Source of the DNA: an archaeon
GTDB taxonomy: Archaea > Iainarchaeota > Iainarchaeia > Iainarchaeales > JANQMZ01
Direction: 5' to 3'
NCBI GenBank assembly: GCA_028279805.1
Contig: JANQMZ010000007.1
Location: 660,001 to 692,000 of the forward strand
Length of the DNA: 32,000 nucleotides
Part shown: one piece after another, positions 12,993 through 22,947 of the stretch
How the letters are laid out: each line of letters opens with the position of its first letter
How positions within the stretch are numbered: the stretch's first letter is position 1
The notes under the pieces: generated by a model
The model's database searches: none
Seen by the model: only the letters and a program-made list of their open reading frames with translations
What the model was told of the DNA's origin: nothing
Made by a program: the position numbers and the translations under genes

Positions 12993-14369
12993 TTATTTTT
13001 TTGAATTAATTATTCTGTTCATTTCTGCTGCAAATTTTTTTTCAAATACATCCAATTCTTTTATTTTTTTGTCAATTAATTCAATTCTGGAATCAGTTTT
13101 TTGCTCTGCTTTTTGGGCTTCCTGATTTAATTGTTCAAGTTTTTTGCTTAATCTTTCAGTGTTTTCTTCTATTGTTTTGATAAATTTTTCTTTAAATATT
13201 TCCAAATCATGCGTTGTATTTCTTAAAGAATCATAATCTATTTCGCCTTTTATTTCGGTTTCAAGCTCATGTATTTTATCTGAAACCCTTTTGTCCCATT
13301 CAACAATTTTTTTACCCATTTTTTCATCCCATTCTTGTACATTGATTTGCTCTGTTTTGCCTGTTTGTTCAGGCATGCTTTTCCCGGTTTTTTCTGTCAT
13401 GTTACTGATTTTTTTTTCTGTTTCCACAGCCTTTTGTTCAAATTCTTTTAGTTTTTTATCAATTTTTTCAGGATTCAGTTTTTTTATTAATTCGTTCATT
13501 TCTGAAAGCTTGTTTTTCATTTCATTTTCCAGGTCTGTGTTTTTTTGAACAGCAATGCTTGAAACCTTGTCTTCAGCTTCTTTTATTAATCCTTCAACAA
13601 TGTTTGACTGCAATTCAAGTGTTTTGCTTATCCTCTGGTCCAGTTCTTCCAGGCGTTTTTTTGATGATTCCAAAAAATCTTGCGCATCGCTTTTTGATTG
13701 AATGAGTTCTGAATTCATTTCTTTTATGAGTGAATTTTTTAACTCTTTTAATTCTTCTTCAAGCATTTTGAATTTTTCAAGCATTAACTTGTTTTCCTGT
13801 GTTTTTTTTTCAACCTGTTCCAAATCTATTTTAAGCTGTGAACCAAGTTTTTTTAATTCTGAAATTTTTGTGTTTAAAACACTTGCAACTTCCAATTCTT
13901 TTTCTTCCATTTTTGAATTTATTTTTTCGCTTAACAAAATACTTTTTGATTCAAGCAATGCATTAATTTTTTTAATTTCTTTTTCTAACCCTTTTTCAAC
14001 TTCTTTTGAAATTTTTCCTTCAAAATTTTCCTGAATTTCTTTCATTTCCTTTAATCTTTGATTTGCTGTTGTAAGAATTCCTTTTTCCCAAAGTTTTGCT
14101 ATCTGCCCGTCTTCAAGTTTTGAAATTTCATCATCTTTTTTTCCATAATTTTTAACTTTTTCAGAAAAAGGTTCTGTGTCTTTTTCATCATCTGTTTTTT
14201 CCGGTTTTGTTTTTTTTTCAGGTTCTTTTTTTGCTTCTTTTATTAACTGGTTTGCATTTTCTTCGGATATTCCTACTTCCTTTAAGTTGAGAATTATTTC
14301 TTTGTCCGGAACATTTAATTTTAAGAGTTTTCTGATGCTTTCCAAAACCAGTTCATTTTTATCAGGCAT
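12993..14369 (-). CDS. Long K/E-rich coiled-coil protein with a small N-terminal helical (UBA-like?) domain
   Basis: 458 aa with no TM segment. The N-terminal approximately 45 aa (LVLESIRKLLKLNVPDKEIILNLKEVGISEENANQLIKEA) are followed by an acidic/basic linker and about 350 aa of heptad-like K/E/L/I sequence. A TATA-like box lies about 27 nt upstream of the ATG. Confidence 0.6.
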   Translation of the reverse strand: MPDKNELVLESIRKLLKLNVPDKEIILNLKEVGISEENANQLIKEAKKEPEKKTKPEKTDDEKDTEPFSEKVKNYGKKDDEISKLEDGQIAKLWEKGILTTANQRLKEMKEIQENFEGKISKEVEKGLEKEIKKINALLESKSILLSEKINSKMEEKELEVASVLNTKISELKKLGSQLKIDLEQVEKKTQENKLMLEKFKMLEEELKELKNSLIKEMNSELIQSKSDAQDFLESSKKRLEELDQRISKTLELQSNIVEGLIKEAEDKVSSIAVQKNTDLENEMKNKLSEMNELIKKLNPEKIDKKLKEFEQKAVETEKKISNMTEKTGKSMPEQTGKTEQINVQEWDEKMGKKIVEWDKRVSDKIHELETEIKGEIDYDSLRNTTHDLEIFKEKFIKTIEENTERLSKKLEQLNQEAQKAEQKTDSRIELIDKKIKELDVFEKKFAAEMNRIINSKK

Positions 14370-14608: not shown

Positions 14609-14830
14609 CTATAATGAGATTGAAATGATTGAATCGCCTCTTATCATAAGCTTTCCAACTTTTGTTTTTGTCTCTCCGTTAACCAGTTCTTCCGCGTCTT
14701 CCAAAACAATGTTTAAGTGAACGTCAAATGCTTTTAAAGTGCCTCTTACCTGTTGTTCTCCTTTTAGTTTTACTAAAACCGGTTTTCCTATGTTTTCGCT
14801 TAAACTGTCAAACGGTCTTCCATCAGTCAT
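14609..14830 (-). CDS. Sm-like archaeal protein (SmAP/LSm)
   Basis: 73 aa. Sm1 is KPVLVKLKGEQQVRGTLKAFDVHLNIVLEDAEE and Sm2 is LMIRGDSIISI. Confidence 0.9.
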   Translation of the reverse strand: MTDGRPFDSLSENIGKPVLVKLKGEQQVRGTLKAFDVHLNIVLEDAEELVNGETKTKVGKLMIRGDSIISISL

Positions 14831-15621
14831 TGTGGTTCCCCCTGTCTTTTGAATATTTTGTTTAGAAGCCTTTTTAAAAATGATTCTTTTTTTTCTTTTT
14901 CAACAATTTTTACTCCTGTCATTTTTTGTGAAATTTTTTCAAAAGATTTTGAGGCAGGGCTGTTAATGTTTCTTAAAATAACGGGTTCCTGTTTTTTTTC
15001 CAAAAAAGTTTGTCTTACGTTTTCATCGTAAGGAATTTCACCGTAACTTGGCAATTCCATCATTTTCATTAACTGTTTTTTCTCAATTTCTCCTTTTTGT
15101 TTTTTTATCATGTTTATAATTATTCCGATAGGCTTCGAACCAAGTTTTTGTGCAACTATTTTTGTTTTTAATGCATCTGCAACGCTTGGCGAATCCGGCG
15201 TTGTTACAATCAAAACATGGTCTGCTGCCGCCAAAGCAGACTGAACATTTTTTTCAATTCCTGCTGCTGCATCCAGTAAAATGTAATCATATTTGTCTTT
15301 TAATGTTGAAATAATTGATTTTAATCTTGCAGAATCAACTTTTTTATAATTTTCCAAACTCAGCCCTGAGGGAATCAGTTCAACATTTCCGGGGCCGTCA
15401 TAAATGGCGTCATCAATTGTTGATTCTCCTGTTAACACTTCATGCAGTGTTATTGGAGACATTTGCAGTCCTAATATTAGTGACAGGTTTGCCATTGCAA
15501 CATCTGCGTCAATCAGCAAAACTTTTTTTCCAAGTTTTGCCAGTGCCACTCCCAAATTTGCAACAACTGTTGTTTTGCCAACACCGCCTTTTCCTGATGC
15601 AATTGTTATTATTATTCCCAT
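14827..15621 (-). CDS. minD: MinD/ParA-family P-loop ATPase (archaeal MinD-like) with a C-terminal amphipathic helix
   Basis: 264 aa. It has the deviant Walker A ASGKGGVGKTT, Walker B ILLDAAAG, and a C-terminal SFLKRLLNKIFKR. The stop overlaps the Sm start (ATGA). Confidence 0.9.
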   Translation of the reverse strand: MGIIITIASGKGGVGKTTVVANLGVALAKLGKKVLLIDADVAMANLSLILGLQMSPITLHEVLTGESTIDDAIYDGPGNVELIPSGLSLENYKKVDSARLKSIISTLKDKYDYILLDAAAGIEKNVQSALAAADHVLIVTTPDSPSVADALKTKIVAQKLGSKPIGIIINMIKKQKGEIEKKQLMKMMELPSYGEIPYDENVRQTFLEKKQEPVILRNINSPASKSFEKISQKMTGVKIVEKEKKESFLKRLLNKIFKRQGEPQ

Positions 15622-15646
15622 GTTATCATCATGTTTTTTGTTGTTT

Positions 15647-16123
15647 TTATTTTCTTTCCATTCCCAGCAATCCCAGTTTTTTTAATATGTCAAGCTTTGT
15701 TTCTTCTTTTGTTTCTTCTGAGGCTTGTTCGTATTTTTTAGGAATTTTTCTTTTTAATTCCTGTAAAGAATATTCTTTTGATAACTGCATTTTTTCTTCA
15801 AATGCTATAACCAGTTCTGCCTGTTGTTTGCTTAACTCGTTTACATCAATTATTCCCTGTTGTGATGCAAATGAGTTTAAAATTTTTGTTAAAGCCTCTT
15901 CTCCAAGCACATCTTTTTCTTCGTTTATGTTTTGAAAAATTGCCCCTTTCAATGAACCTTTCTGAAATAATAACAGTCCTTCACTTATTCCGTTTTTTCC
16001 TTCAGTTGTTATAACAAGATAACCTGTAAACGTTTCTTTGAACAGGTTTGTCAAAATTTCCAAAATATTTGTTTCTGATAATTTTTTTCTGTTTTCAATT
16101 GTTTTTCCTGCGGGAAGATTCAT
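15647..16123 (-). CDS. Hypothetical protein with a PATAN/DUF4388-like N-terminal domain
   Basis: 158 aa. FTGYLVITTEGKNGISEGLLLFQKGSLKGAIF...VLGEEALTKIL resembles the PATAN-type pattern. The C-terminal part is K/E-rich and ends LDILKKLGLLG. The gene lies 25 nt upstream of minD on the same strand. Confidence 0.4.
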   Translation of the reverse strand: MNLPAGKTIENRKKLSETNILEILTNLFKETFTGYLVITTEGKNGISEGLLLFQKGSLKGAIFQNINEEKDVLGEEALTKILNSFASQQGIIDVNELSKQQAELVIAFEEKMQLSKEYSLQELKRKIPKKYEQASEETKEETKLDILKKLGLLGMERK

Positions 16124-16217
16124 TTTTTCACCTGTTTTTGAGCAATAAAAGTAACAAAATTGTTTTAAAAAGCTTTTTTATTACATTTTTTTTGGTGATT
16201 TTTTGGAAGAAGAAAAG

Positions 16218-16589
16218 ATGTTTAAAAAAGTGTCACAATTAAAACCTGGAAATTATATTTTAATTGAGGGTAATGCGTGCAGAATTAAAAATATTGAAAA
16301 ATCCAAGCCGGGAAGGCACGGAGCAGCAAAAGCCCGTATTTCCGCCACAGGGGTTTTTGACAATCAGAAAAGAAATTTGTTAAGACCCACATCAGCCGAT
16401 GCTGAAATTCCTGTAATGAAAAAAGCTGCAGCACAAGTTGTGGCTGTAATGGGTGATACTGTTCAGATAATGGACAAGGAAAATTATCAGACTTTTGATG
16501 TTAAAAAACCGGATTTTAATGTTGAATCAGGAAAAGAAATTGAATATATGCAATACGGTCAAAATGTTTTGATTGTTAAAGAAAAATAA
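16218..16589 (+). CDS. eif5a: Translation initiation factor 5A (aIF5A), with Arg at the hypusine site
   Basis: 123 aa from ATG 16218; the ORF-track TTG at 16203 is less likely. The N-terminus VSQLKPGNYILIEGNACRIKNIEKSKPGRHGAAKARI and the OB-fold C-terminal domain fit aIF5A. A GGTGAT Shine-Dalgarno-like motif lies upstream. Confidence 0.9.
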   Translation: MFKKVSQLKPGNYILIEGNACRIKNIEKSKPGRHGAAKARISATGVFDNQKRNLLRPTSADAEIPVMKKAAAQVVAVMGDTVQIMDKENYQTFDVKKPDFNVESGKEIEYMQYGQNVLIVKEK

Positions 16590-16594
16590 TTTTT

Positions 16595-16873
16595 ATGTTT
16601 CAATTAAAAAATTTTACTGGAAGGATTTGTTCAGGAAGAACAGGTTATGAATTTTTGCCGCAAAATTCAACCCAACTAAACCTGGAAGAATTGTCAAAAA
16701 AGTTAAACAAAAAAGGAGTTTTTGTTGAAATTGAAACTCCTGACATGCTTTTAATTGATTTTAAAGGCAACGATATCAGCATTTTTAAAACTGGAAAAAT
16801 TTTAATCAAAAACATTGCATCAGAAGCAGAAGCAAAAAAAATTGCAAACCTTTTAATGCAATCCTTAAAATAA
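16595..16873 (+). CDS. Small hypothetical protein (TBP-repeat-like motif)
   Basis: 92 aa, starting 5 nt after the aIF5A stop. The C-terminal half, DISIFKTGKILIKNIASEAEAKKIANLL, resembles the strand-turn-helix motif of TBP-like folds. The antisense 80-aa ORF looks like a shadow ORF. Confidence 0.4.
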   Translation: MFQLKNFTGRICSGRTGYEFLPQNSTQLNLEELSKKLNKKGVFVEIETPDMLLIDFKGNDISIFKTGKILIKNIASEAEAKKIANLLMQSLK

Positions 16874-16948
16874 CAATTTTGCTTCAAAACAAACCCTTAA
16901 ATATTGTTTTTGCTTAATTTACTAAAATTTACTTTCAGGAGGGATTCA

Positions 16949-17617
16949 ATGGTTGACTATGTGGAAGCAATAAAAAAACCTTTTAGTGATGTTAAAACAT
17001 TGGTTTTAGGTTCAGTTATTGCAGCAATTCCGTTGCTTGGCTTGTATGTTGGCGGTTATGCTTTAAATTCGGCTTCATGGGAATTAAAAGGAAAAAAACA
17101 ATTGCCCAGTTTAGGCGATGATGTAAGCGGCAACATAATGAAACTAGTAATGGGTTTAATTATAGGCATAGTTTATGCTTTACCGGCATTTGTTCTGTTT
17201 TTCATCGGAGGAGGAGCAGTTTTATTAGGTGCATTTGGTGCAGGAGCAACTCAGGATCCAAGTGTTTTCATTAACGCTTTAACCAGCGGAGGTCCAATGC
17301 TTTTGGTCGGAGCAATACTTGCAGTTATTGCAGGATTCATTTCTCCGATTGCAGTAATGAGTTATCTGAGTAAGGGAACATTAAGTGCTGCTTTTGCTTT
17401 TGGTGAAGTAATAAGAAAAGCTTTTACCGGAACTTACATTGTAACATGGATTTTTGCAGTTGTATGGTCATTAATTTTTTCAGCAATTACAAGTGCAATA
17501 ATTATTGCAACATCTGTAACAATAATTGTGCCATTTTTATTGTCAGGATTCATTAACTACATTTTACTCGTATCAGTTTACTCAATGTACGCACAAGCAT
17601 TCAAGGAGATCAAATAA
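16949..17617 (+). CDS. Polytopic membrane protein, DUF4013-like
   Basis: From ATG 16949, preceded by GGAGGG. The N-terminus YVEAIKKPFSDVKTLVLGSVIAAIPLLGLYVGGYAL...KKQLPSLGD matches the DUF4013 N-terminal pattern. Four to five TM helices follow. Confidence 0.6.
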   Translation: MVDYVEAIKKPFSDVKTLVLGSVIAAIPLLGLYVGGYALNSASWELKGKKQLPSLGDDVSGNIMKLVMGLIIGIVYALPAFVLFFIGGGAVLLGAFGAGATQDPSVFINALTSGGPMLLVGAILAVIAGFISPIAVMSYLSKGTLSAAFAFGEVIRKAFTGTYIVTWIFAVVWSLIFSAITSAIIIATSVTIIVPFLLSGFINYILLVSVYSMYAQAFKEIK

Positions 17618-17640
17618 TCTCCTTCTTTATTTTTCTTTTT

Positions 17641-18525
17641 CTACATTTTTCTTAATTTTTTAATTCTTTCTTCTATTGGCGGGTGAGTTGCAAACAAGTT
17701 ATTCAAAAAACTTGGCGTATTTTTTAACGGGTTAGAAATAAACAAATGCGATGTGGCTTTGTTTGCAGACTTTAAAGGCTTATTGTCTTGTGAAATTTTT
17801 TCCAAAGCAGATGCCAACCCCTCCGGATATCTTGTCAATAGTGCTCCAGAAGCATCAGCCAAATATTCTCTTTGTCTTGACACTGCCAATTTTATTATTG
17901 TTGCAACAATCGGCGTTAAAATAGCCAAAACCAAACCCAAAACCAATGCGATGGCTGTTGCCCTGCCATCCCTTCTCCCTCCAAAGCTTCCCCAAAAAAA
18001 TGAACGCAGAATAAAATCACTCAGCAAAGCTGTTACTCCGACCAAAACTGTTATAATGCTCATAAACCGAATATCATAATTGCCAATATGGCTCATTTCA
18101 TGGGCAATAACTCCTTCCAGTTCCTGTTTATTCAGTTTTTTCATTAAACCAGTTGTCACACAAATAACACCATTTTCAGGGTTTCTGCCAGTTGCAAAAG
18201 CATTTAATGCATCTGAGTCAATCACATAACATTTTGGTTTTGGCAATCCCGCAGCAATAGCCAAACCCTCAACGGTGTGATACAAGAATGCTTCATTTTT
18301 TCTGTCAACAGGCCTTGCTTTGCTTATTCTCAGAACAAGTTTATCGGAATAATAATATGAGCCCCAAACCATTGCCAACGCGATTATCGTGGCAATAATT
18401 ATTCCAAAAGTGCTGCTTCCAAACAGTAAACCAAAAACCCAGCCTAATCCTATTATTAAAATTATAAAAAATAATGATAATAGAATGCTGTTTCTTTTGT
18501 TTGATGAAATTCTGTCATAAATCAT
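17641..18525 (-). CDS. htpX: HtpX-type M48 zinc metalloprotease
   Basis: 294 aa. It has N-terminal TM helices, the HEMSH zinc motif (GVIAHEMSHIGNYD) and a C-terminal ATHPPIEERIKKL. Confidence 0.9.
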   Translation of the reverse strand: MIYDRISSNKRNSILLSLFFIILIIGLGWVFGLLFGSSTFGIIIATIIALAMVWGSYYYSDKLVLRISKARPVDRKNEAFLYHTVEGLAIAAGLPKPKCYVIDSDALNAFATGRNPENGVICVTTGLMKKLNKQELEGVIAHEMSHIGNYDIRFMSIITVLVGVTALLSDFILRSFFWGSFGGRRDGRATAIALVLGLVLAILTPIVATIIKLAVSRQREYLADASGALLTRYPEGLASALEKISQDNKPLKSANKATSHLFISNPLKNTPSFLNNLFATHPPIEERIKKLRKM

Positions 18526-18531
18526 TTTTTA

Positions 18532-19089
18532 TCAAAATGAAACTTTTGGAACAGTTTTTTCTGCTTCATCCATTTCAAAATATTCTTCCTGTCCAAATCC
18601 GAACATTTGGGCAAAAATATTGTTTGGAAAAACCTGAATTCCGTTATTGTAATTTAAAACAGAATCATTGTAAAACTGTCTTGCATAAGCTATTTTGTTT
18701 TCAATTCCTGACAATTCTTCCTGCAAATTTAAAAAATTTGCACTTGCTTTTAAGTCAGGATAAGCTTCGGCTACAGCAAACAATGATTTTAATGCAGATG
18801 TTAACATGTTGTTTGCATTTGCATTTTCTTCAACTGTTCCCGCATTAACCAATGCCGATCTTGCTTTTGTTACATTTTCAAAAACACTTTTTTCATGTTT
18901 TGCATAACCTTTAACTGTTTCAATTAAATTGGGAATCAGATTTGTTCTTTTTTTTAACTGAACATCAATCTGGCTCCATGCATTTTTAACCCTGTTGCGC
19001 CTGATAATCAAAGAATTAAAAATTGATATTACAATTATTCCCAGAACAACCAGAATTGCTACGGGAATCCAAAAACCCAGAGAACTCAA
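18532..19089 (-). CDS. lemA: LemA family protein
   Basis: 185 aa. One N-terminal TM helix is followed by [37 protein letters not shown]...YPDLKA...[11 protein letters not shown]. The gene lies 6 nt upstream of htpX, a common pairing. Confidence 0.9.
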
Positions 19090-19128: not shown

Positions 19129-20598
19129 TTAATCCAATTTTTGAAATAACACATTCCCTTTACTTGTTTTTGCTTCCTGCGTCAAATCAAATCTGCACTC
19201 CTGCAGGCTTTTTCCTTCAACGCCAAGCTGTTTTTGAATTTCTTTAGAACTTGCAGGAATAAAAGGCCATAACAAAATACTGATAATTCTTAAAGAGTCA
19301 GCCAAACTGTACAAAACATTTTCCCTGTTTTGCTCATTTTCCCATGGTTTTTTGTCATTAATGAATTTGTTGCATTCTTTTACAAAACCCATTATTTGTC
19401 CGAGAGCCAGATGCAGTTCAAATTTGTTCATATGATTCCTGATTTGATCCAGCTTTAATGCTTTTTTTAACTGTTCATCTGTTTTGCCTTTTGGAATTTT
19501 TCCATCAGAATACCTTTCAATCATTGAAATTGTCCTGTTTAACAGGTTCCCCAGTTCATTGGCTAATTCATTGTTATTCCGCTCTTTTAATGCTTTTTCT
19601 GAGAAAAAGCCGTCCTCGCCAAAAGGAATTTCTCTGACCAAAAAGTAACGAATTGAATCCAGTTCATATTTTTTAACCAAGGCAAAAGGGTCAATCACAT
19701 TGCCTTTGCTTTTGCTCATTTTTTCCCCTGAATCCGTGTTAATAAAGCCATGAACCAAAACTGTTTTTGCAGGTTCAATGTCTGCCGCCATTAAAATTGC
19801 AGGCCAGATTACACTGTGAAACCATAAAATGTCTTTTCCTATTACATGCGCATCAGCAGGCCAGAATTTTTCAAATTTTTTATCCGGGTAATCAATTCCG
19901 GAAATATAATTGGTTAAGGCGTCCAGCCAGACATACAATACATGTTTCTGGTTTATGGGAAGCTTGATTCCCCAGTCAAAACTTGTTCTTGAAATGCTCA
20001 AATCCTTTAATTCTTTTTTAACCCTGTTAACAATTTCTTTTTGCTTTTTTTTTGGCAGAATTGATTCATTTTTTTCCAAATATTTTAACAAAGGTTCCTT
20101 AAATTCTGATAATTTGAAAAAATAACTGTCTTCCTCAATTTCTTCAGGCTTTGTTTTATGAATCGGGCACAAACCATTTTGCAAATCTTTTTTTTGATAA
20201 AAAGCTTCACAATCAGAACAGTACAAACCAACATATTTGTCCAGATAAATTAATTTTTTTTGATTTATTTTGTCAAAAATCTGCAAAACAACTTTTTCAT
20301 GTCTTTTTTCCGTTGTTCTGATAAAATCATTATTGCTAATGTTCCACGCTTTGCATAATTCTTCAAATTTTTTGGCCTGCACATCCACAAATTTTTCAGG
20401 TTTTAATTTTGCTTTTTCTGCAGCTTTTTGAATTTTTTGACCGTGTTCATCTGTGCCTGTTAAAAAAAATGTGTCTTTGCCTTCAAGTGTTTTCCAACGC
20501 GCAATTACATCTGTCACAAGCTTTTCATAAGCATGTCCCATGTGAGGGTTTCCTGACGGATAATCTATTGCGGTTGTTATGTAAAATTTTTCACTCAT
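19129..20598 (-). CDS. metG: Methionyl-tRNA synthetase
   Basis: From ATG 20598 the protein is 489 aa. It has the HIGH motif (PHMGHAYE), a zinc knuckle (CSDCEAF...CPIH) and KMSKS (EKMSKSKGN). The ORF-track start at 20670 adds 24 unrelated residues. There is no C-terminal Trbp111-type domain. Confidence 0.95.
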   Translation of the reverse strand: MSEKFYITTAIDYPSGNPHMGHAYEKLVTDVIARWKTLEGKDTFFLTGTDEHGQKIQKAAEKAKLKPEKFVDVQAKKFEELCKAWNISNNDFIRTTEKRHEKVVLQIFDKINQKKLIYLDKYVGLYCSDCEAFYQKKDLQNGLCPIHKTKPEEIEEDSYFFKLSEFKEPLLKYLEKNESILPKKKQKEIVNRVKKELKDLSISRTSFDWGIKLPINQKHVLYVWLDALTNYISGIDYPDKKFEKFWPADAHVIGKDILWFHSVIWPAILMAADIEPAKTVLVHGFINTDSGEKMSKSKGNVIDPFALVKKYELDSIRYFLVREIPFGEDGFFSEKALKERNNNELANELGNLLNRTISMIERYSDGKIPKGKTDEQLKKALKLDQIRNHMNKFELHLALGQIMGFVKECNKFINDKKPWENEQNRENVLYSLADSLRIISILLWPFIPASSKEIQKQLGVEGKSLQECRFDLTQEAKTSKGNVLFQKLD

Positions 20599-20844
20599 AA
20601 AACATTTTTCCCGTAAAACCAATAAAAGCTTTTTTCCTTTTTTTTTCAAAAAACCGGTTCTGAAAACCAATTATATTTTTTGTTATTGTTTGAATACTTA
20701 ACTCTTCCCTGTTAAATAAATTTAACATATCAGTATATAGTTTTCCGAGCACACGCTCCTGACACAATTTCTCGATACACATTCAAAAGTCAGTGGAAAT
20801 TTACTTCCCAAACTGCCTTTTAAAAGTATGAAAATGGTATATTT

Positions 20845-22947
20845 ATGGTTAGTTCTATCGGAGCGGAAAAAGTCTCAGAAAGCCCTTTTGTGTCAAAATA
20901 CCAGGCTTTTCTGGATTCAAGCTATAAAAAGGAAATTGAAAGGCTGGCTGAACATTACCCCCAGAAACGTTCCCTTAATGTCAATTTTCAGGATTTGGAA
21001 AAATTTGACTATGAATTGGCGGATTCTTTGTTAAGAGATCCTGACACTCATTTGGAGGCTTTGCAGGAATCTGTTGAAAGAATTAATATTCCTTTGCTTG
21101 ATGAACAGGATTTTAAGCCGCATGTTCGTTTTTTTAATTTGCCTGCTGATGCGTGCCCTTTAATCAGAAACCTGGGAGTAGACAGTTTAAGAAAAATGGT
21201 TCAGATTGACGGTGTAATAAAACAAATAACCGACATTATGCCTAAAATTAAAAATTCAACATGGGAATGTCTGGCATGCGGCAATACTTATAAAATTGCC
21301 CAAAAAGAACATGCAATTAACAAGCCTCATATGTGTGAATGCAAAAGCCGTGAATTTAAACTCATTGTGGAAGACTCCGATTACATTGATTATCAAAAAA
21401 TTTTGGTTCAGGAACCTTTGGAATTGTTAAAAGGGAATGAACAGCCAAGCACTTTTGAAGTTCATGTTTATGATGATTTAGTTAACATGGTTACAGCGGG
21501 AGACAGAATTAAAATAACAGGAATTTTAAGATTAAGACCAAGCAAAAAAAACAAACTTGTTTTTGAAAGATTTTTAGAATCAAATTTTTTGGAAAAAACA
21601 GAGGAAAAATTTGAAGAATTGGAAATTTTGCCTGAAGAAAAAGAAAAAATTGAAGAATTGTCAAAAGACCCTTTAATTTATGACAAACTGATTCAAAGTT
21701 TGGCTCCTACAATTTATGGCCATGATGATGTCAAAGAAGCAATAATAATGCAGTTGTTTGGAGGTGTAAAAAAAGTTTTACCGGATGACCAGAAAATAAG
21801 GGGAAATGTTCATGTTTTGCTTGTCGGTGACCCGGGAGCCGCAAAATCAATGATGTTAATGGCAGTGGACCGAGTTGCTCCAAAAAGTGTTTATACATCC
21901 GGAAAAACAACAACCGGTGCAGGAATATCTGCAACAGCTGTTAAGGATGAATTTGGTGAGGGAGGCTGGACTTTAAAAGCGGGAGCATTAGTTTTGGCTT
22001 CAGGCGGTTTGGCTTTAATTGACGAATTTGATAAAATGGATACACAGGACCGTTCGGCGTTACATGAAAGCCTTGAACAGCAGACAATTTCTGTTGCAAA
22101 AGCAGGCATTGTTACAAGGTTTAAAACTGAGACAAGTGTTTTGGCTGCTGCAAACCCTAAAAATGCAAGGTTTGATCCAATGGATGATCTGATTAACCAG
22201 ATTGATTTGCCTGTCACTTTGATGTCAAGATTTGACTTGTTTTTTATTATCCGGGATGAACTGGACAGAACCAAGGACAAAAATATTGCTGAACATATTT
22301 TAAAAAACCATAAAAGCGGTGAAAATTTTGCACAATCCAAAAAAACAGGAAAATCTTTAACAAAAGAAGAACAGGAAACACTGGAATCTTTGCTTCCTCC
22401 AATTGAACCTGAACTGTTAAAAAAATATATTTCTTATGCCCGTCAAAATGTTTTTCCGGTTTTGTCAAAAGAAGCAATTAAAGCAATTTCAGATTTTTAT
22501 ATTGAGTTAAGGGACCGAGGCAGGGAAGAAGGGCAGTATGCTGCGACTCACAGGCAACTTGAAGGCTTGATAAGATTAAGTGAGGCTTCTGCAAGAGTCA
22601 GATTGGCTGATGAAGTTAAAAAATCGGATGCTGAAAGGGCTATTCGATTATTAAAAGATTCACTTGAAAAAGCGTTTACTGACCGAGAAACAGACAGGCT
22701 TGATATTGATATTCTTACAACAGGCAAAAGCCATTCAAAAAGACAGACAATGAAAGAAATTATGAAAATTGTAAGGGATATTACAAAGGAAGAGGACACT
22801 GCGGTTATTGAGAAAGTTGTATCCGAAGCTGACAAGCTTGGAATAGATGAGGACAGGGCAAGAGATGCCATTAATGATTTGTTAAAACAAGGCGATTTAT
22901 ACAAACCTCCGGAAGGGCAGGGAAGAGCTGTTAAACCGGTTGATTAA
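20845..22947 (+). CDS. mcm: MCM replicative helicase
   Basis: 700 aa. It has an N-terminal zinc motif (CLACGN...CECKSREF), Walker A LLVGDPGAAKS, Walker B ALIDEFDKM, the arginine finger SRFDL and a C-terminal winged-helix region. A TATA-like TTTTAAAA at 20818-20825 suggests a near-leaderless start. Confidence 0.95.
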   Translation: MVSSIGAEKVSESPFVSKYQAFLDSSYKKEIERLAEHYPQKRSLNVNFQDLEKFDYELADSLLRDPDTHLEALQESVERINIPLLDEQDFKPHVRFFNLPADACPLIRNLGVDSLRKMVQIDGVIKQITDIMPKIKNSTWECLACGNTYKIAQKEHAINKPHMCECKSREFKLIVEDSDYIDYQKILVQEPLELLKGNEQPSTFEVHVYDDLVNMVTAGDRIKITGILRLRPSKKNKLVFERFLESNFLEKTEEKFEELEILPEEKEKIEELSKDPLIYDKLIQSLAPTIYGHDDVKEAIIMQLFGGVKKVLPDDQKIRGNVHVLLVGDPGAAKSMMLMAVDRVAPKSVYTSGKTTTGAGISATAVKDEFGEGGWTLKAGALVLASGGLALIDEFDKMDTQDRSALHESLEQQTISVAKAGIVTRFKTETSVLAAANPKNARFDPMDDLINQIDLPVTLMSRFDLFFIIRDELDRTKDKNIAEHILKNHKSGENFAQSKKTGKSLTKEEQETLESLLPPIEPELLKKYISYARQNVFPVLSKEAIKAISDFYIELRDRGREEGQYAATHRQLEGLIRLSEASARVRLADEVKKSDAERAIRLLKDSLEKAFTDRETDRLDIDILTTGKSHSKRQTMKEIMKIVRDITKEEDTAVIEKVVSEADKLGIDEDRARDAINDLLKQGDLYKPPEGQGRAVKPVD

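What the first reader, a model, noticed from the sequence alone, without database searches (positions are those of the whole stretch)
16218..16589. aIF5A encodes arginine at the hypusine position (GRHG instead of GKHG)
Seen: codon AGG at 16314-16316 gives ...NIEKSKPGRHGAAKARI..., in an otherwise ordinary, full-length aIF5A. Established: in characterised archaeal and eukaryotic IF5A, the Lys of the SKxGKHGxAK loop is converted to (deoxy)hypusine by deoxyhypusine synthase, and this is regarded as required for function. Bacterial EF-P lineages with Arg at the equivalent loop tip use a different modification, EarP-dependent rhamnosylation. Inference: this aIF5A cannot be hypusinated. It either works unmodified or carries an Arg-directed modification not described for archaea. 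That would fit a reduced genome that has lost deoxyhypusine synthase.
Basis: partly seen in the sequence, partly recalled or inferred. Interest (0 to 1): 0.7.

Follow-up and report, generated by a model that had tools for sequence, protein, structure and literature searches.

The report
Archaeal aIF5A with arginine replacing hypusine lysine
A whole clade of tiny DPANN archaea (Iainarchaeota) carries an otherwise normal, well-conserved translation factor aIF5A in which the lysine that all characterised archaea and eukaryotes convert to hypusine is an arginine, so it must work without that supposedly essential modification.

Summary
The ORF at 16218-16589 (+) is a full-length aIF5A, and codon AGG 16314-16316 (R33) falls gaplessly on the hypusine lysine of solved archaeal aIF5A structures.

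It is not an error. I found 33 distinct aIF5A sequences with GRHG, using AGG, AGA and CGG codons, in 8 GTDB species representatives labelled Candidatus Iainarchaeum and in many metagenomes. dN/dS is 0.04-0.18.

Flanking-gene trees make the main R clade monophyletic, and it includes the window. Two further lineages (L141, L188) acquired Arg independently.

Among 150 diverse aIF5A representatives, 140 keep GKHG. A 2026 review still calls the lysine strictly conserved, and the same change in yeast (K51R) is non-functional.

Hypusination of Arg is chemically impossible.

Loss of deoxyhypusine synthase (DHS) could not be tested genome-wide. There is no DHS or remnant in the window or in 177 kb of R-type loci. 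DHS lies directly downstream of aIF5A in 48 of 87 K-type loci and 0 of 14 R-type loci. In the main R clade that position holds a 92-aa half-TBP ORF.

The most likely mechanism is an unmodified Arg at the loop tip, tolerated by a proteome poor in polyproline. An unknown Arg modification is not excluded.

The parts
16218..16589 (+). aIF5A coding sequence (123 aa from the ATG; an alternative TTG start at 16203 gives 128 aa)
   Evidence: NCBIfam NF003076 151 bits and TIGR00037 120.5 bits. Pfam IF5A-like_N plus eIF-5a OB. AF2 model with TM 0.92-0.94 to 1bkb, 1iz6 and 8put_E.
16314..16316 (+). AGG codon = Arg33 at the hypusine (Lys) position
   Evidence: Read directly. Gapless alignment to the GKHG lysine of 1iz6, 1bkb and 1eif. 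Invariant Arg in 33 distinct relatives, with AGG, AGA and CGG codons.
16302..16337 (+). Loop S29-KPGRHGAAKA-R40, the tip of the beta-hairpin that points to the peptidyl-transferase centre in IF5A/EF-P
   Evidence: G-x-H-G, K(+5) and R(+7) are invariant in both R-type and K-type sequences, and loop length is identical. Residues 29-37 are a loop between strands 19-28 and 38-45 in the model.
16595..16873 (+). 92-aa single-repeat TBP-like ORF, 5 nt downstream of aIF5A. It is the conserved operon partner in the main R clade.
   Evidence: Pfam TBP PF00352 at 23.2 bits against a cut-off of 22.9. Beta-alpha-beta4-alpha model whose best PDB matches are TBP. It is the next gene in 12 of 14 R-type loci and 1 of 87 K-type loci, with a 4-nt ATGA overlap in L132, L134 and L136.
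16904..19089 (.). DUF4013 (+), HtpX-type M48 peptidase (-) and LemA (-): a block lying between aIF5A and MetRS in the R clade
   Evidence: Pfam annotation. Homologues are present in 4-5 of 8 other R-type GTDB loci and 0-1 of 29 K-type loci.
14609..16123 (-). LSM, MinD/ParA and DUF2226: upstream synteny anchors shared with K-type relatives
   Evidence: The concatenated tree of these three proteins groups all R-type loci that carry them (76% including the window, 100% for the rest).
19129..20670 (-). Methionyl-tRNA synthetase, the downstream synteny anchor used for phylogeny
   Evidence: NJ tree on 485 columns: window + L139 + L132 + L134 form a clade at 99% bootstrap, and R-type L141 branches elsewhere.

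Best explanation
This is the genuine, apparently single-copy, selectively maintained aIF5A of an Iainarchaeota (DPANN) lineage. A one-base change (AAG/AAA to AGG/AGA) replaced the hypusine-acceptor lysine with arginine in the ancestor of a deep clade.

Shown here: the substitution, its age, its purifying selection, and its recurrence in independent lineages.

From established chemistry: deoxyhypusine synthase needs a lysine epsilon-amine, so the protein cannot carry (deoxy)hypusine.

Inferred: the factor still binds next to the P-site tRNA and presents the unchanged G-x-H-G loop. An unmodified guanidinium at its tip takes the place of the aminobutyl-lysine. This reaches less far, since the loop is not lengthened as it is in EfpL. 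It is probably sufficient because these proteomes contain very few polyproline stall motifs. DHS then has no substrate and has probably been lost. In the main R clade, a co-transcribed half-TBP gene lies immediately downstream of aIF5A, the position DHS holds in many K-type relatives.
For: - Identity and column assignment.
- Clade-wide and real: 23 of 56 nearest database homologues, 8 of 36 GTDB species representatives, 9 JGI contigs, and 33 distinct sequences with three Arg codons.
- Purifying selection: dN/dS 0.039-0.18, with dS mostly saturated. The loop is otherwise invariant.
- Monophyly of the main clade. Independent origins in L141 and L188.
- No DHS or DHS remnant in the window or in 177 kb of R-type loci.
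- DHS is the next gene after aIF5A in 48 of 87 K-type loci against 0 of 14 R-type loci (Fisher p = 5.6e-5; not phylogeny-corrected). This includes the Diapherotrites-labelled K-type relative P0039.
- Precedents for unmodified tips in the EF-P/IF5A family: EfpL Arg33 and PGKGP-type EF-P (PMC12856214, PMC13602936).
- PP motifs occur at 0.90 per 1000 aa in R-type loci against 1.72 in K-type loci, and PPP once in 40,179 aa.
Against: - DHS absence was not tested on any whole R-type genome.
- No biochemical data exist; the Arg could be modified.
- The same substitution is non-functional in yeast (K51R; PMC9117371).
- The R-type loop is not extended as in EfpL, so an unmodified Arg would reach less far towards the CCA end.
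- The polyproline comparison rests on about 155,000 aa of syntenic neighbourhoods and is confounded by proline content.
- The DHS-adjacency contrast is phylogenetically confounded. K-type relatives that share the window's synteny also lack an adjacent DHS.
Confidence: 0.6

Rival explanations
1. The Arg is post-translationally modified by an enzyme not yet linked to aIF5A. The modification (glycosylation as by EarP in bacteria, methylation or another extension) would restore the reach that hypusine normally provides.
For: Most EF-P/IF5A family members need a tip modification, and Arg-tip EF-Ps are rhamnosylated (PMC12856214). Unmodified K51R eIF5A is inactive in yeast. The loop is not lengthened relative to K-type sequences.
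Against: No glycosyltransferase, EarP-like (DUF2331) or other plausible modifying enzyme is in the 32-kb window. None is among the genes conserved next to R-type aIF5A. The loop (SKPGRHGAAK) does not resemble the EarP acceptor loop KSGRNAA (my recollection of the literature). Whole genomes were not searched.
Confidence: 0.22
2. The R-type protein has lost the elongation role and is kept for another, hypusine-independent function, such as RNA binding or RNase activity as proposed for Sulfolobus aIF5A. Alternatively, the half-TBP partner supplies the missing function.
For: Moonlighting roles of aIF5A have been reported (titles and abstracts of PMC9599864 and PMC6105217). A translationally coupled half-TBP ORF follows aIF5A in 12 of 14 R-type loci.
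Against: The ribosome-facing loop (G-x-H-G, K+5, R+7) stays invariant in R-types, which is hard to explain without ribosome contact. The gene keeps its orthologous position. One K-type locus (L137) also carries the half-TBP gene, so that gene is not tied strictly to Arg.
Confidence: 0.1
3. The Arg codon is a sequencing or assembly error, a pseudogene state, or is backed up by a canonical second copy.
For: None found. Only the single-base distance from AAG makes an error conceivable.
Against: The same protein appears in two assemblies. There are 33 distinct R-type sequences with AGG, AGA and CGG codons. dN/dS is 0.04-0.18. There is one aIF5A locus per R-type GTDB genome, and no other hit on the 853,278-bp contig.
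Confidence: 0.02

Closest known systems
Canonical archaeal aIF5A (e.g. P. horikoshii 1IZ6; Sulfolobus aIF5A in complex with DHS, 8PUT)
   Same: Same two-domain fold (TM 0.92-0.94), same loop length, same G-x-H-G/A-K-A-R loop context, and the same orthologous genome position within Iainarchaeota.
   Different: Arg replaces the deoxyhypusine/hypusine-acceptor Lys. No adjacent DHS, whereas 48 of 87 K-type loci examined carry an aIF5A-DHS operon.
Yeast/human eIF5A K51R/K50R laboratory mutants
   Same: The same amino-acid change at the same position.
   Different: The laboratory mutant cannot support yeast growth (PMC9117371). Here the change is fixed and under purifying selection across a deep natural clade.
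EfpL (YeiP), the bacterial EF-P paralogue with unmodified Arg33
   Same: An Arg at the loop tip that works without modification (PMC12856214, PMC13602936).
   Different: EfpL has three domains and a loop extended by two residues that compensates for the missing modification. The R-type aIF5A has two domains and no loop extension.
EarP-type EF-P (Arg32 rhamnosylation; Pseudomonas, Shewanella, Neisseria)
   Same: Arg at the tip of the equivalent loop.
   Different: Bacterial three-domain factor with a different loop consensus, dependent on EarP. No EarP-like gene was seen in the window or among conserved neighbours.
PGKGP-type unmodified EF-P (Actinobacteria)
   Same: A family member that is active without any tip modification.
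   Different: It keeps Lys and stiffens the loop with two flanking prolines. The R-type loop has a single Pro at -2, and some members lack even that.

Membership tests
aIF5A (archaeal translation factor IF-5A; NCBIfam NF003076 / TIGR00037) | Whole-protein score above the curated equivalog cut-off | tested here: met
   NF003076 151 bits (cut-off 138); TIGR00037 120.5 bits (cut-off 75.45).
aIF5A (archaeal translation factor IF-5A; NCBIfam NF003076 / TIGR00037) | Two-domain architecture: N-terminal SH3-like/KOW barrel plus C-terminal OB fold | tested here: met
   Pfam PF21485 + PF01287. AF2 model with pLDDT 94.7 and TM 0.92-0.94 to 1bkb, 1iz6, 8put_E and 2eif.
aIF5A (archaeal translation factor IF-5A; NCBIfam NF003076 / TIGR00037) | Lysine in the S-K-x-G-K-H-G-x-A-K loop that accepts deoxyhypusine | tested here: not met
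   Arg (AGG 16314-16316) occupies that column. The rest of the loop is conserved.
aIF5A (archaeal translation factor IF-5A; NCBIfam NF003076 / TIGR00037) | Orthology: the same genomic position as the aIF5A of K-type relatives, and single copy | tested here: met
   LSM-MinD-DUF2226-aIF5A-...-MetRS-MCM synteny is shared with K-type loci. One locus per genome. The single-copy status of the window genome was checked only indirectly.
aIF5A (archaeal translation factor IF-5A; NCBIfam NF003076 / TIGR00037) | Partner enzyme deoxyhypusine synthase encoded in the genome | not testable with these tools
   No DHS in the window or in 177 kb of R-type loci. Whole genomes could not be scanned; the collection and protein-database searches were exhausted.
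EarP-dependent Arg-rhamnosylated EF-P | Arg at the loop tip | tested here: met
   R33.
EarP-dependent Arg-rhamnosylated EF-P | Three-domain bacterial EF-P | tested here: not met
   EF-P models score 35 bits or less against cut-offs above 160. The protein has two domains.
EarP-dependent Arg-rhamnosylated EF-P | EarP-type acceptor loop (KSGRNAA, as I recall it from the literature) | tested here: not met
   The loop is SKPGRHGAAK.
EarP-dependent Arg-rhamnosylated EF-P | EarP (DUF2331) glycosyltransferase gene present | tested here: inconclusive
   None among the Pfam-annotated genes of the 32-kb window.
EfpL/YeiP-type unmodified Arg factor | Loop extended by two residues so that the unmodified Arg reaches the CCA end | tested here: not met
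   R-type and K-type loops align without gaps from -13 to +22. EfpL models score 26 bits or less against cut-offs of 216 and above.

The most novel reading that the evidence does not exclude
The main R clade runs a hypusine-independent IF5A system. After the K-to-R switch made DHS useless, function is maintained either by a new archaeal Arg-directed modification or by the translationally coupled 92-aa half-TBP protein. That protein is encoded immediately downstream of aIF5A, the operon position DHS holds in many K-type relatives, and would act as an accessory subunit. Recurrent, independent K-to-R switches (L141, L188) would then mark a general evolutionary route out of hypusine dependence in DPANN archaea.
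Probability: 0.15. Interest if true: 0.88.

Novelty: new variant of a known kind. Interest (0 to 1): 0.72.

Why it matters
Hypusine is textbook-unique: one modification, on one protein, regarded as essential and universal in archaea and eukaryotes. A January 2026 review still calls the lysine strictly conserved (PMC12856214).

A deep natural clade, plus at least two independent lineages, carries the same substitution that abolishes eIF5A function in yeast. This shows that IF5A can be freed from hypusine.

It provides a natural system for asking three things: what the modification contributes at the peptidyl-transferase centre, how low a polyproline load must be to make it dispensable, and whether archaea have an Arg-based alternative comparable to the several EF-P modification systems in bacteria.

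It also warns against using the lysine or DHS as universal archaeal markers.

Tried and rejected
**Hunt for DHS in the R-type genome**
- I rebuilt human, Sulfolobus and Pyrococcus DHS sequences from memory and verified them against the PDB.
- I then spent the two remaining protein-database searches on a three-sequence profile and on a 'Diapherotrites' DHS, P0258.
- Each search lists only the best 120 of more than 6,000 hits. P0258 turned out to be 80% identical to Pyrococcus DHS and comes from unrelated assemblies.
- No listed hit sits on the 853,278-bp contig, but that result carries no information about absence.
- Look-ups of other DHS hits (P0332, P0335, P0337) did not land in any assembly that carries a typed aIF5A.

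**Other dead ends**
- Viral-collection scans for DHS motifs found nothing.
- A test scan showed that pattern scans stop at 120 arbitrary rows, so motif scans for DHS in the big collections were abandoned.
- Supplement searches (Prunetti 2016; Dombrowski 2020) gave no usable DHS distribution for Iainarchaeota.
- Paper searches for hypusine combined with DPANN or Diapherotrites, for SRR20820740, and for MAG names gave nothing relevant.

**Analyses set aside**
- The NJ tree of aIF5A alone (129 columns) was too noisy to count K/R transitions. I used flanking proteins instead.
- Loop-flank relaxation in R-types is not supported once 225 diverse K-type sequences are compared.
- P0195 (GRHG with an HGHAK-type loop) has a scrambled C-terminal half and was not counted as an independent origin.
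- The apparent GEHG variants are an artefact of reading through an insert.

Full report
**The observation.** The sequence reads GGA AGG CAC GGA at 16311-16322, in frame with the ATG at 16218. AGG 16314-16316 therefore encodes residue 33 of a 123-aa product, MFKKVSQLKPGNYILIEGNACRIKNIEKSKPGRHGAAKARI.... A TTG at 16203, four bases after a GGTGA, would add MEEEK and matches the N-termini of homologues such as MAEEEKTFKK, so the true start may be 16203.

The protein passes the curated equivalog thresholds for IF-5A: NF003076 at 151 bits against 138, and TIGR00037 at 120.5 against 75.45. It carries both Pfam domains. phmmer aligns it without gaps to P. horikoshii, P. aerophilum and M. jannaschii aIF5A, with the Arg exactly opposite their GKHG lysine, K37 in 1iz6. 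An AlphaFold2 model built on 25 relatives has mean pLDDT 94.7 and superposes on 1bkb, 1iz6, 8put_E and 2eif at TM 0.92-0.94. Residues 29-37 form the hairpin loop.

**It is real and belongs to a clade.** The identical protein is encoded on an 853,278-bp NCBI contig and on an independently assembled Logan contig from SRR20820740. Of the 56 closest database homologues, 23 have GRHG.

A scan of GTDB species representatives with an R-type alignment returned 36 loci. Eight are R-type, five with AGG and three with AGA, and those that carry an organism label are named Candidatus Iainarchaeum archaeon; several are labelled only 'uncultured archaeon'. A scan of JGI metagenomes added nine more, including one with a CGG codon. 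In total there are 33 distinct R-type sequences.

Pairwise dN/dS among R-type genes is 0.039-0.18 wherever dS is not saturated, and it is saturated for most pairs. The state is therefore old and under purifying selection.

**Phylogeny.** An NJ tree of the neighbouring MetRS (485 columns) groups the window with L139, L132 and L134 at 99% bootstrap. A concatenate of MinD, DUF2226 and LSM (492 columns) groups all nine R-type loci that carry these genes, at 76% including the window and 100% for the rest.

R-type L141 (JAFCFF01) branches far away in the MetRS tree and lacks the clade's gene order. R-type L188 (a 75-kb JGI contig) has K-type nearest relatives and a different context. These two are independent origins.

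**How unusual it is.** HMMER against 1.84 billion cluster representatives listed 150 aIF5A clusters. Of these, 140 have GKHG. The exceptions are fragments, two with a changed Gly, one corrupt GRHG sequence (P0195), and P0154, a full-length variant with SGGRG and no Lys.

The library holds no paper linking hypusine to DPANN or Diapherotrites. [quoted passage not shown] The same change in yeast, K51R, cannot be modified and does not support growth (PMC9117371).

**Surroundings.** The window is an ordinary DPANN housekeeping region: PurF, an eRF1-family protein, RNase P p30, L15e, TtuA, LSM, MinD, DUF2226, aIF5A, MetRS, MCM, type IV pilus genes, UDG and dCTP deaminase. It contains no DHS and no EarP-like gene. 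The LSM-MinD-DUF2226-aIF5A-...-MetRS-MCM order is shared with K-type relatives.

What sets the main R clade apart lies between aIF5A and MetRS:
- a 92-aa ORF 5 nt after the aIF5A stop (16595-16873);
- DUF4013;
- an M48/HtpX peptidase;
- LemA.

The 92-aa ORF is a single TBP repeat. Pfam TBP scores 23.2 bits against a cut-off of 22.9. The model has beta-alpha-beta4-alpha topology, and its best PDB matches are TBP. In L132, L134 and L136 it overlaps the aIF5A stop by ATGA.

**DHS.** tblastn with a verified DHS panel found nothing in 582 kb of window and GTDB loci. It also found no remnant in 177 kb of R-type loci, even at E = 10.

The metagenome loci showed that DHS is very often the next gene after aIF5A. 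Among loci with at least 450 nt downstream, it is adjacent in 48 of 87 K-type and 0 of 14 R-type loci. A half-TBP ORF is adjacent in 12 of 14 R-type and 1 of 87 K-type loci, the exception being L137. Fisher p for DHS adjacency is 5.6e-5.

That contrast is not corrected for phylogeny, and the K-type relatives sharing the window's synteny also lack an adjacent DHS. The most telling case is P0039 with L183, a Diapherotrites-labelled K-type lineage. Its aIF5A is the closest K-type relative of the L132-type R proteins at 70-72% identity. It has a Pfam-confirmed DHS 21 nt downstream of aIF5A.

A genome-wide check of any R-type genome was not possible, so DHS loss remains a well-motivated inference and not a result.

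**Mechanism.** The G-x-H-G core, K(+5), R(+7) and the loop length are invariant in R-type and K-type proteins alike. This points to an unchanged ribosome-facing role.

Hypusination of Arg is chemically excluded. The family offers precedents for unmodified tips: EfpL Arg33, confirmed unmodified by mass spectrometry, and PGKGP-type EF-P. EfpL, however, compensates with a two-residue loop extension that the R-type aIF5A lacks.

The sampled R-type neighbourhoods have 0.90 PP per 1000 aa and one PPP in 40,179 aa. K-type neighbourhoods have 1.72 PP per 1000 aa and six PPP in 114,806 aa. Demand for stall relief therefore appears low in the whole family and lowest in the R clade. This is weak, local evidence.

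I rate the alternatives as follows:
- unmodified Arg that is functionally sufficient: about 0.6;
- an unknown Arg modification: about 0.2;
- a changed or partner-dependent function: about 0.1.

**Verdict.** The finding is real, it is a clade-level trait with recurrent origins, and I found no description of it in the searchable literature. It is a new variant of a known factor and not a new kind of system.

Noticed in passing
window 16595-16873 (+); homologues at L129:10384-10656, L132:7968-8255, L134:5275-5562, L136:624-902, L139:10397-10687, L140:10398-10700, L137:10406-10684: A 92-aa protein made of a single TBP repeat (a 'half-TBP') is encoded directly after aIF5A. The gap ranges from -4 to +24 nt, with an ATGA overlap in three loci. 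It follows aIF5A in 12 of 14 R-type loci and in only one K-type locus (L137). Its function is unknown. It sits immediately downstream of aIF5A, where DHS sits in many K-type lineages.
   Followed up: partly
L237-L251 (JGI contigs, GC about 53%), e.g. L242:6067-6130 and L238:6067-6127: In this lineage the aIF5A ORF is broken exactly in the hypusine loop by a conserved 26-29-nt insert. The insert folds into a hairpin flanked by two 3-nt bulges on opposite strands, which resembles a bulge-helix-bulge motif. Removing ...GGAA|insert|AGCA... restores K-P-G-K-H-G in frame in all 15 loci, so the Lys AAG codon itself is split (A|AG). This is a candidate mini-intron in an archaeal protein-coding gene, or a programmed bypass. 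There is one compensatory pair and several wobble changes. In the papers I retrieved, cbf5 is the example given of archaeal pre-mRNA splicing, and none mentioned IF5A.
   Followed up: partly
L183:6001-7428, L252:10001-11410, and 46 further metagenome loci among L190-L251: aIF5A and deoxyhypusine synthase form a tight two-gene operon, with DHS 20-100 nt downstream on the same strand, in 48 of 87 K-type loci. This includes contigs of 0.99 and 1.11 Mb (Ga0208692_1000001, Ga0208321_1000001).
   Followed up: partly
protein P0154 (129 aa, representative of a 50%-identity cluster): A full-length aIF5A-like protein whose loop reads TSKSGGRGAARCK: Gly at the hypusine position, Arg one residue later, and Arg at +5. 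This is another apparently hypusine-less variant from an unidentified lineage.
   Followed up: no
proteins P0315, P0326, P0329 (about 440 aa); locus L253:2648-3981: Some archaeal DHS proteins are fused to an N-terminal pyruvoyl AdoMet decarboxylase domain (PF02675+PF01916). In L253 a separate AdoMet_dc gene overlaps the DHS start. This links synthesis of the aminobutyl or aminopropyl donor physically to hypusination.
   Followed up: no
P0258 / L165:10001-11008 (GCA_030445695.1) and P0332 / L171 (GCA_013154145.1): Two NCBI MAGs labelled 'Candidatus Diapherotrites archaeon' carry a Thermococcales-like DHS: P0258 is 80% identical to Pyrococcus furiosus DHS, and P0332 is 74% identical to P0258. 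This indicates horizontal transfer from Thermococcales or misbinning.
   Followed up: partly
window 16190-16220: aIF5A may start at TTG 16203 (GGTGA four bases upstream) and not at ATG 16218. The extra MEEEK matches the MAE(E)EK N-termini of homologues. The database entry uses the ATG.
   Followed up: partly
R-type loci L129 and L140 compared with K-type loci of similar GC: At 45-48% GC the R-clade neighbourhoods have 3.1-3.5% proline, against 4.3-5.5% in K-type loci of the same GC. PP dipeptides occur at about half the K-type frequency. The sample is small and local.
   Followed up: partly
L002:12261-14891 (K-type relative) compared with window 20845-22947: The MCM gene of the K-type relative P0036 carries an intein (PF14890; 876 aa). 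The window's MCM (700 aa) does not.
   Followed up: no
window 12993-14369 (-): A 458-aa, highly charged, lysine- and glutamate-rich protein of probable coiled-coil character with no Pfam family. It is conserved at this position in 6 of 8 R-type and 18 of 29 K-type loci.
   Followed up: no
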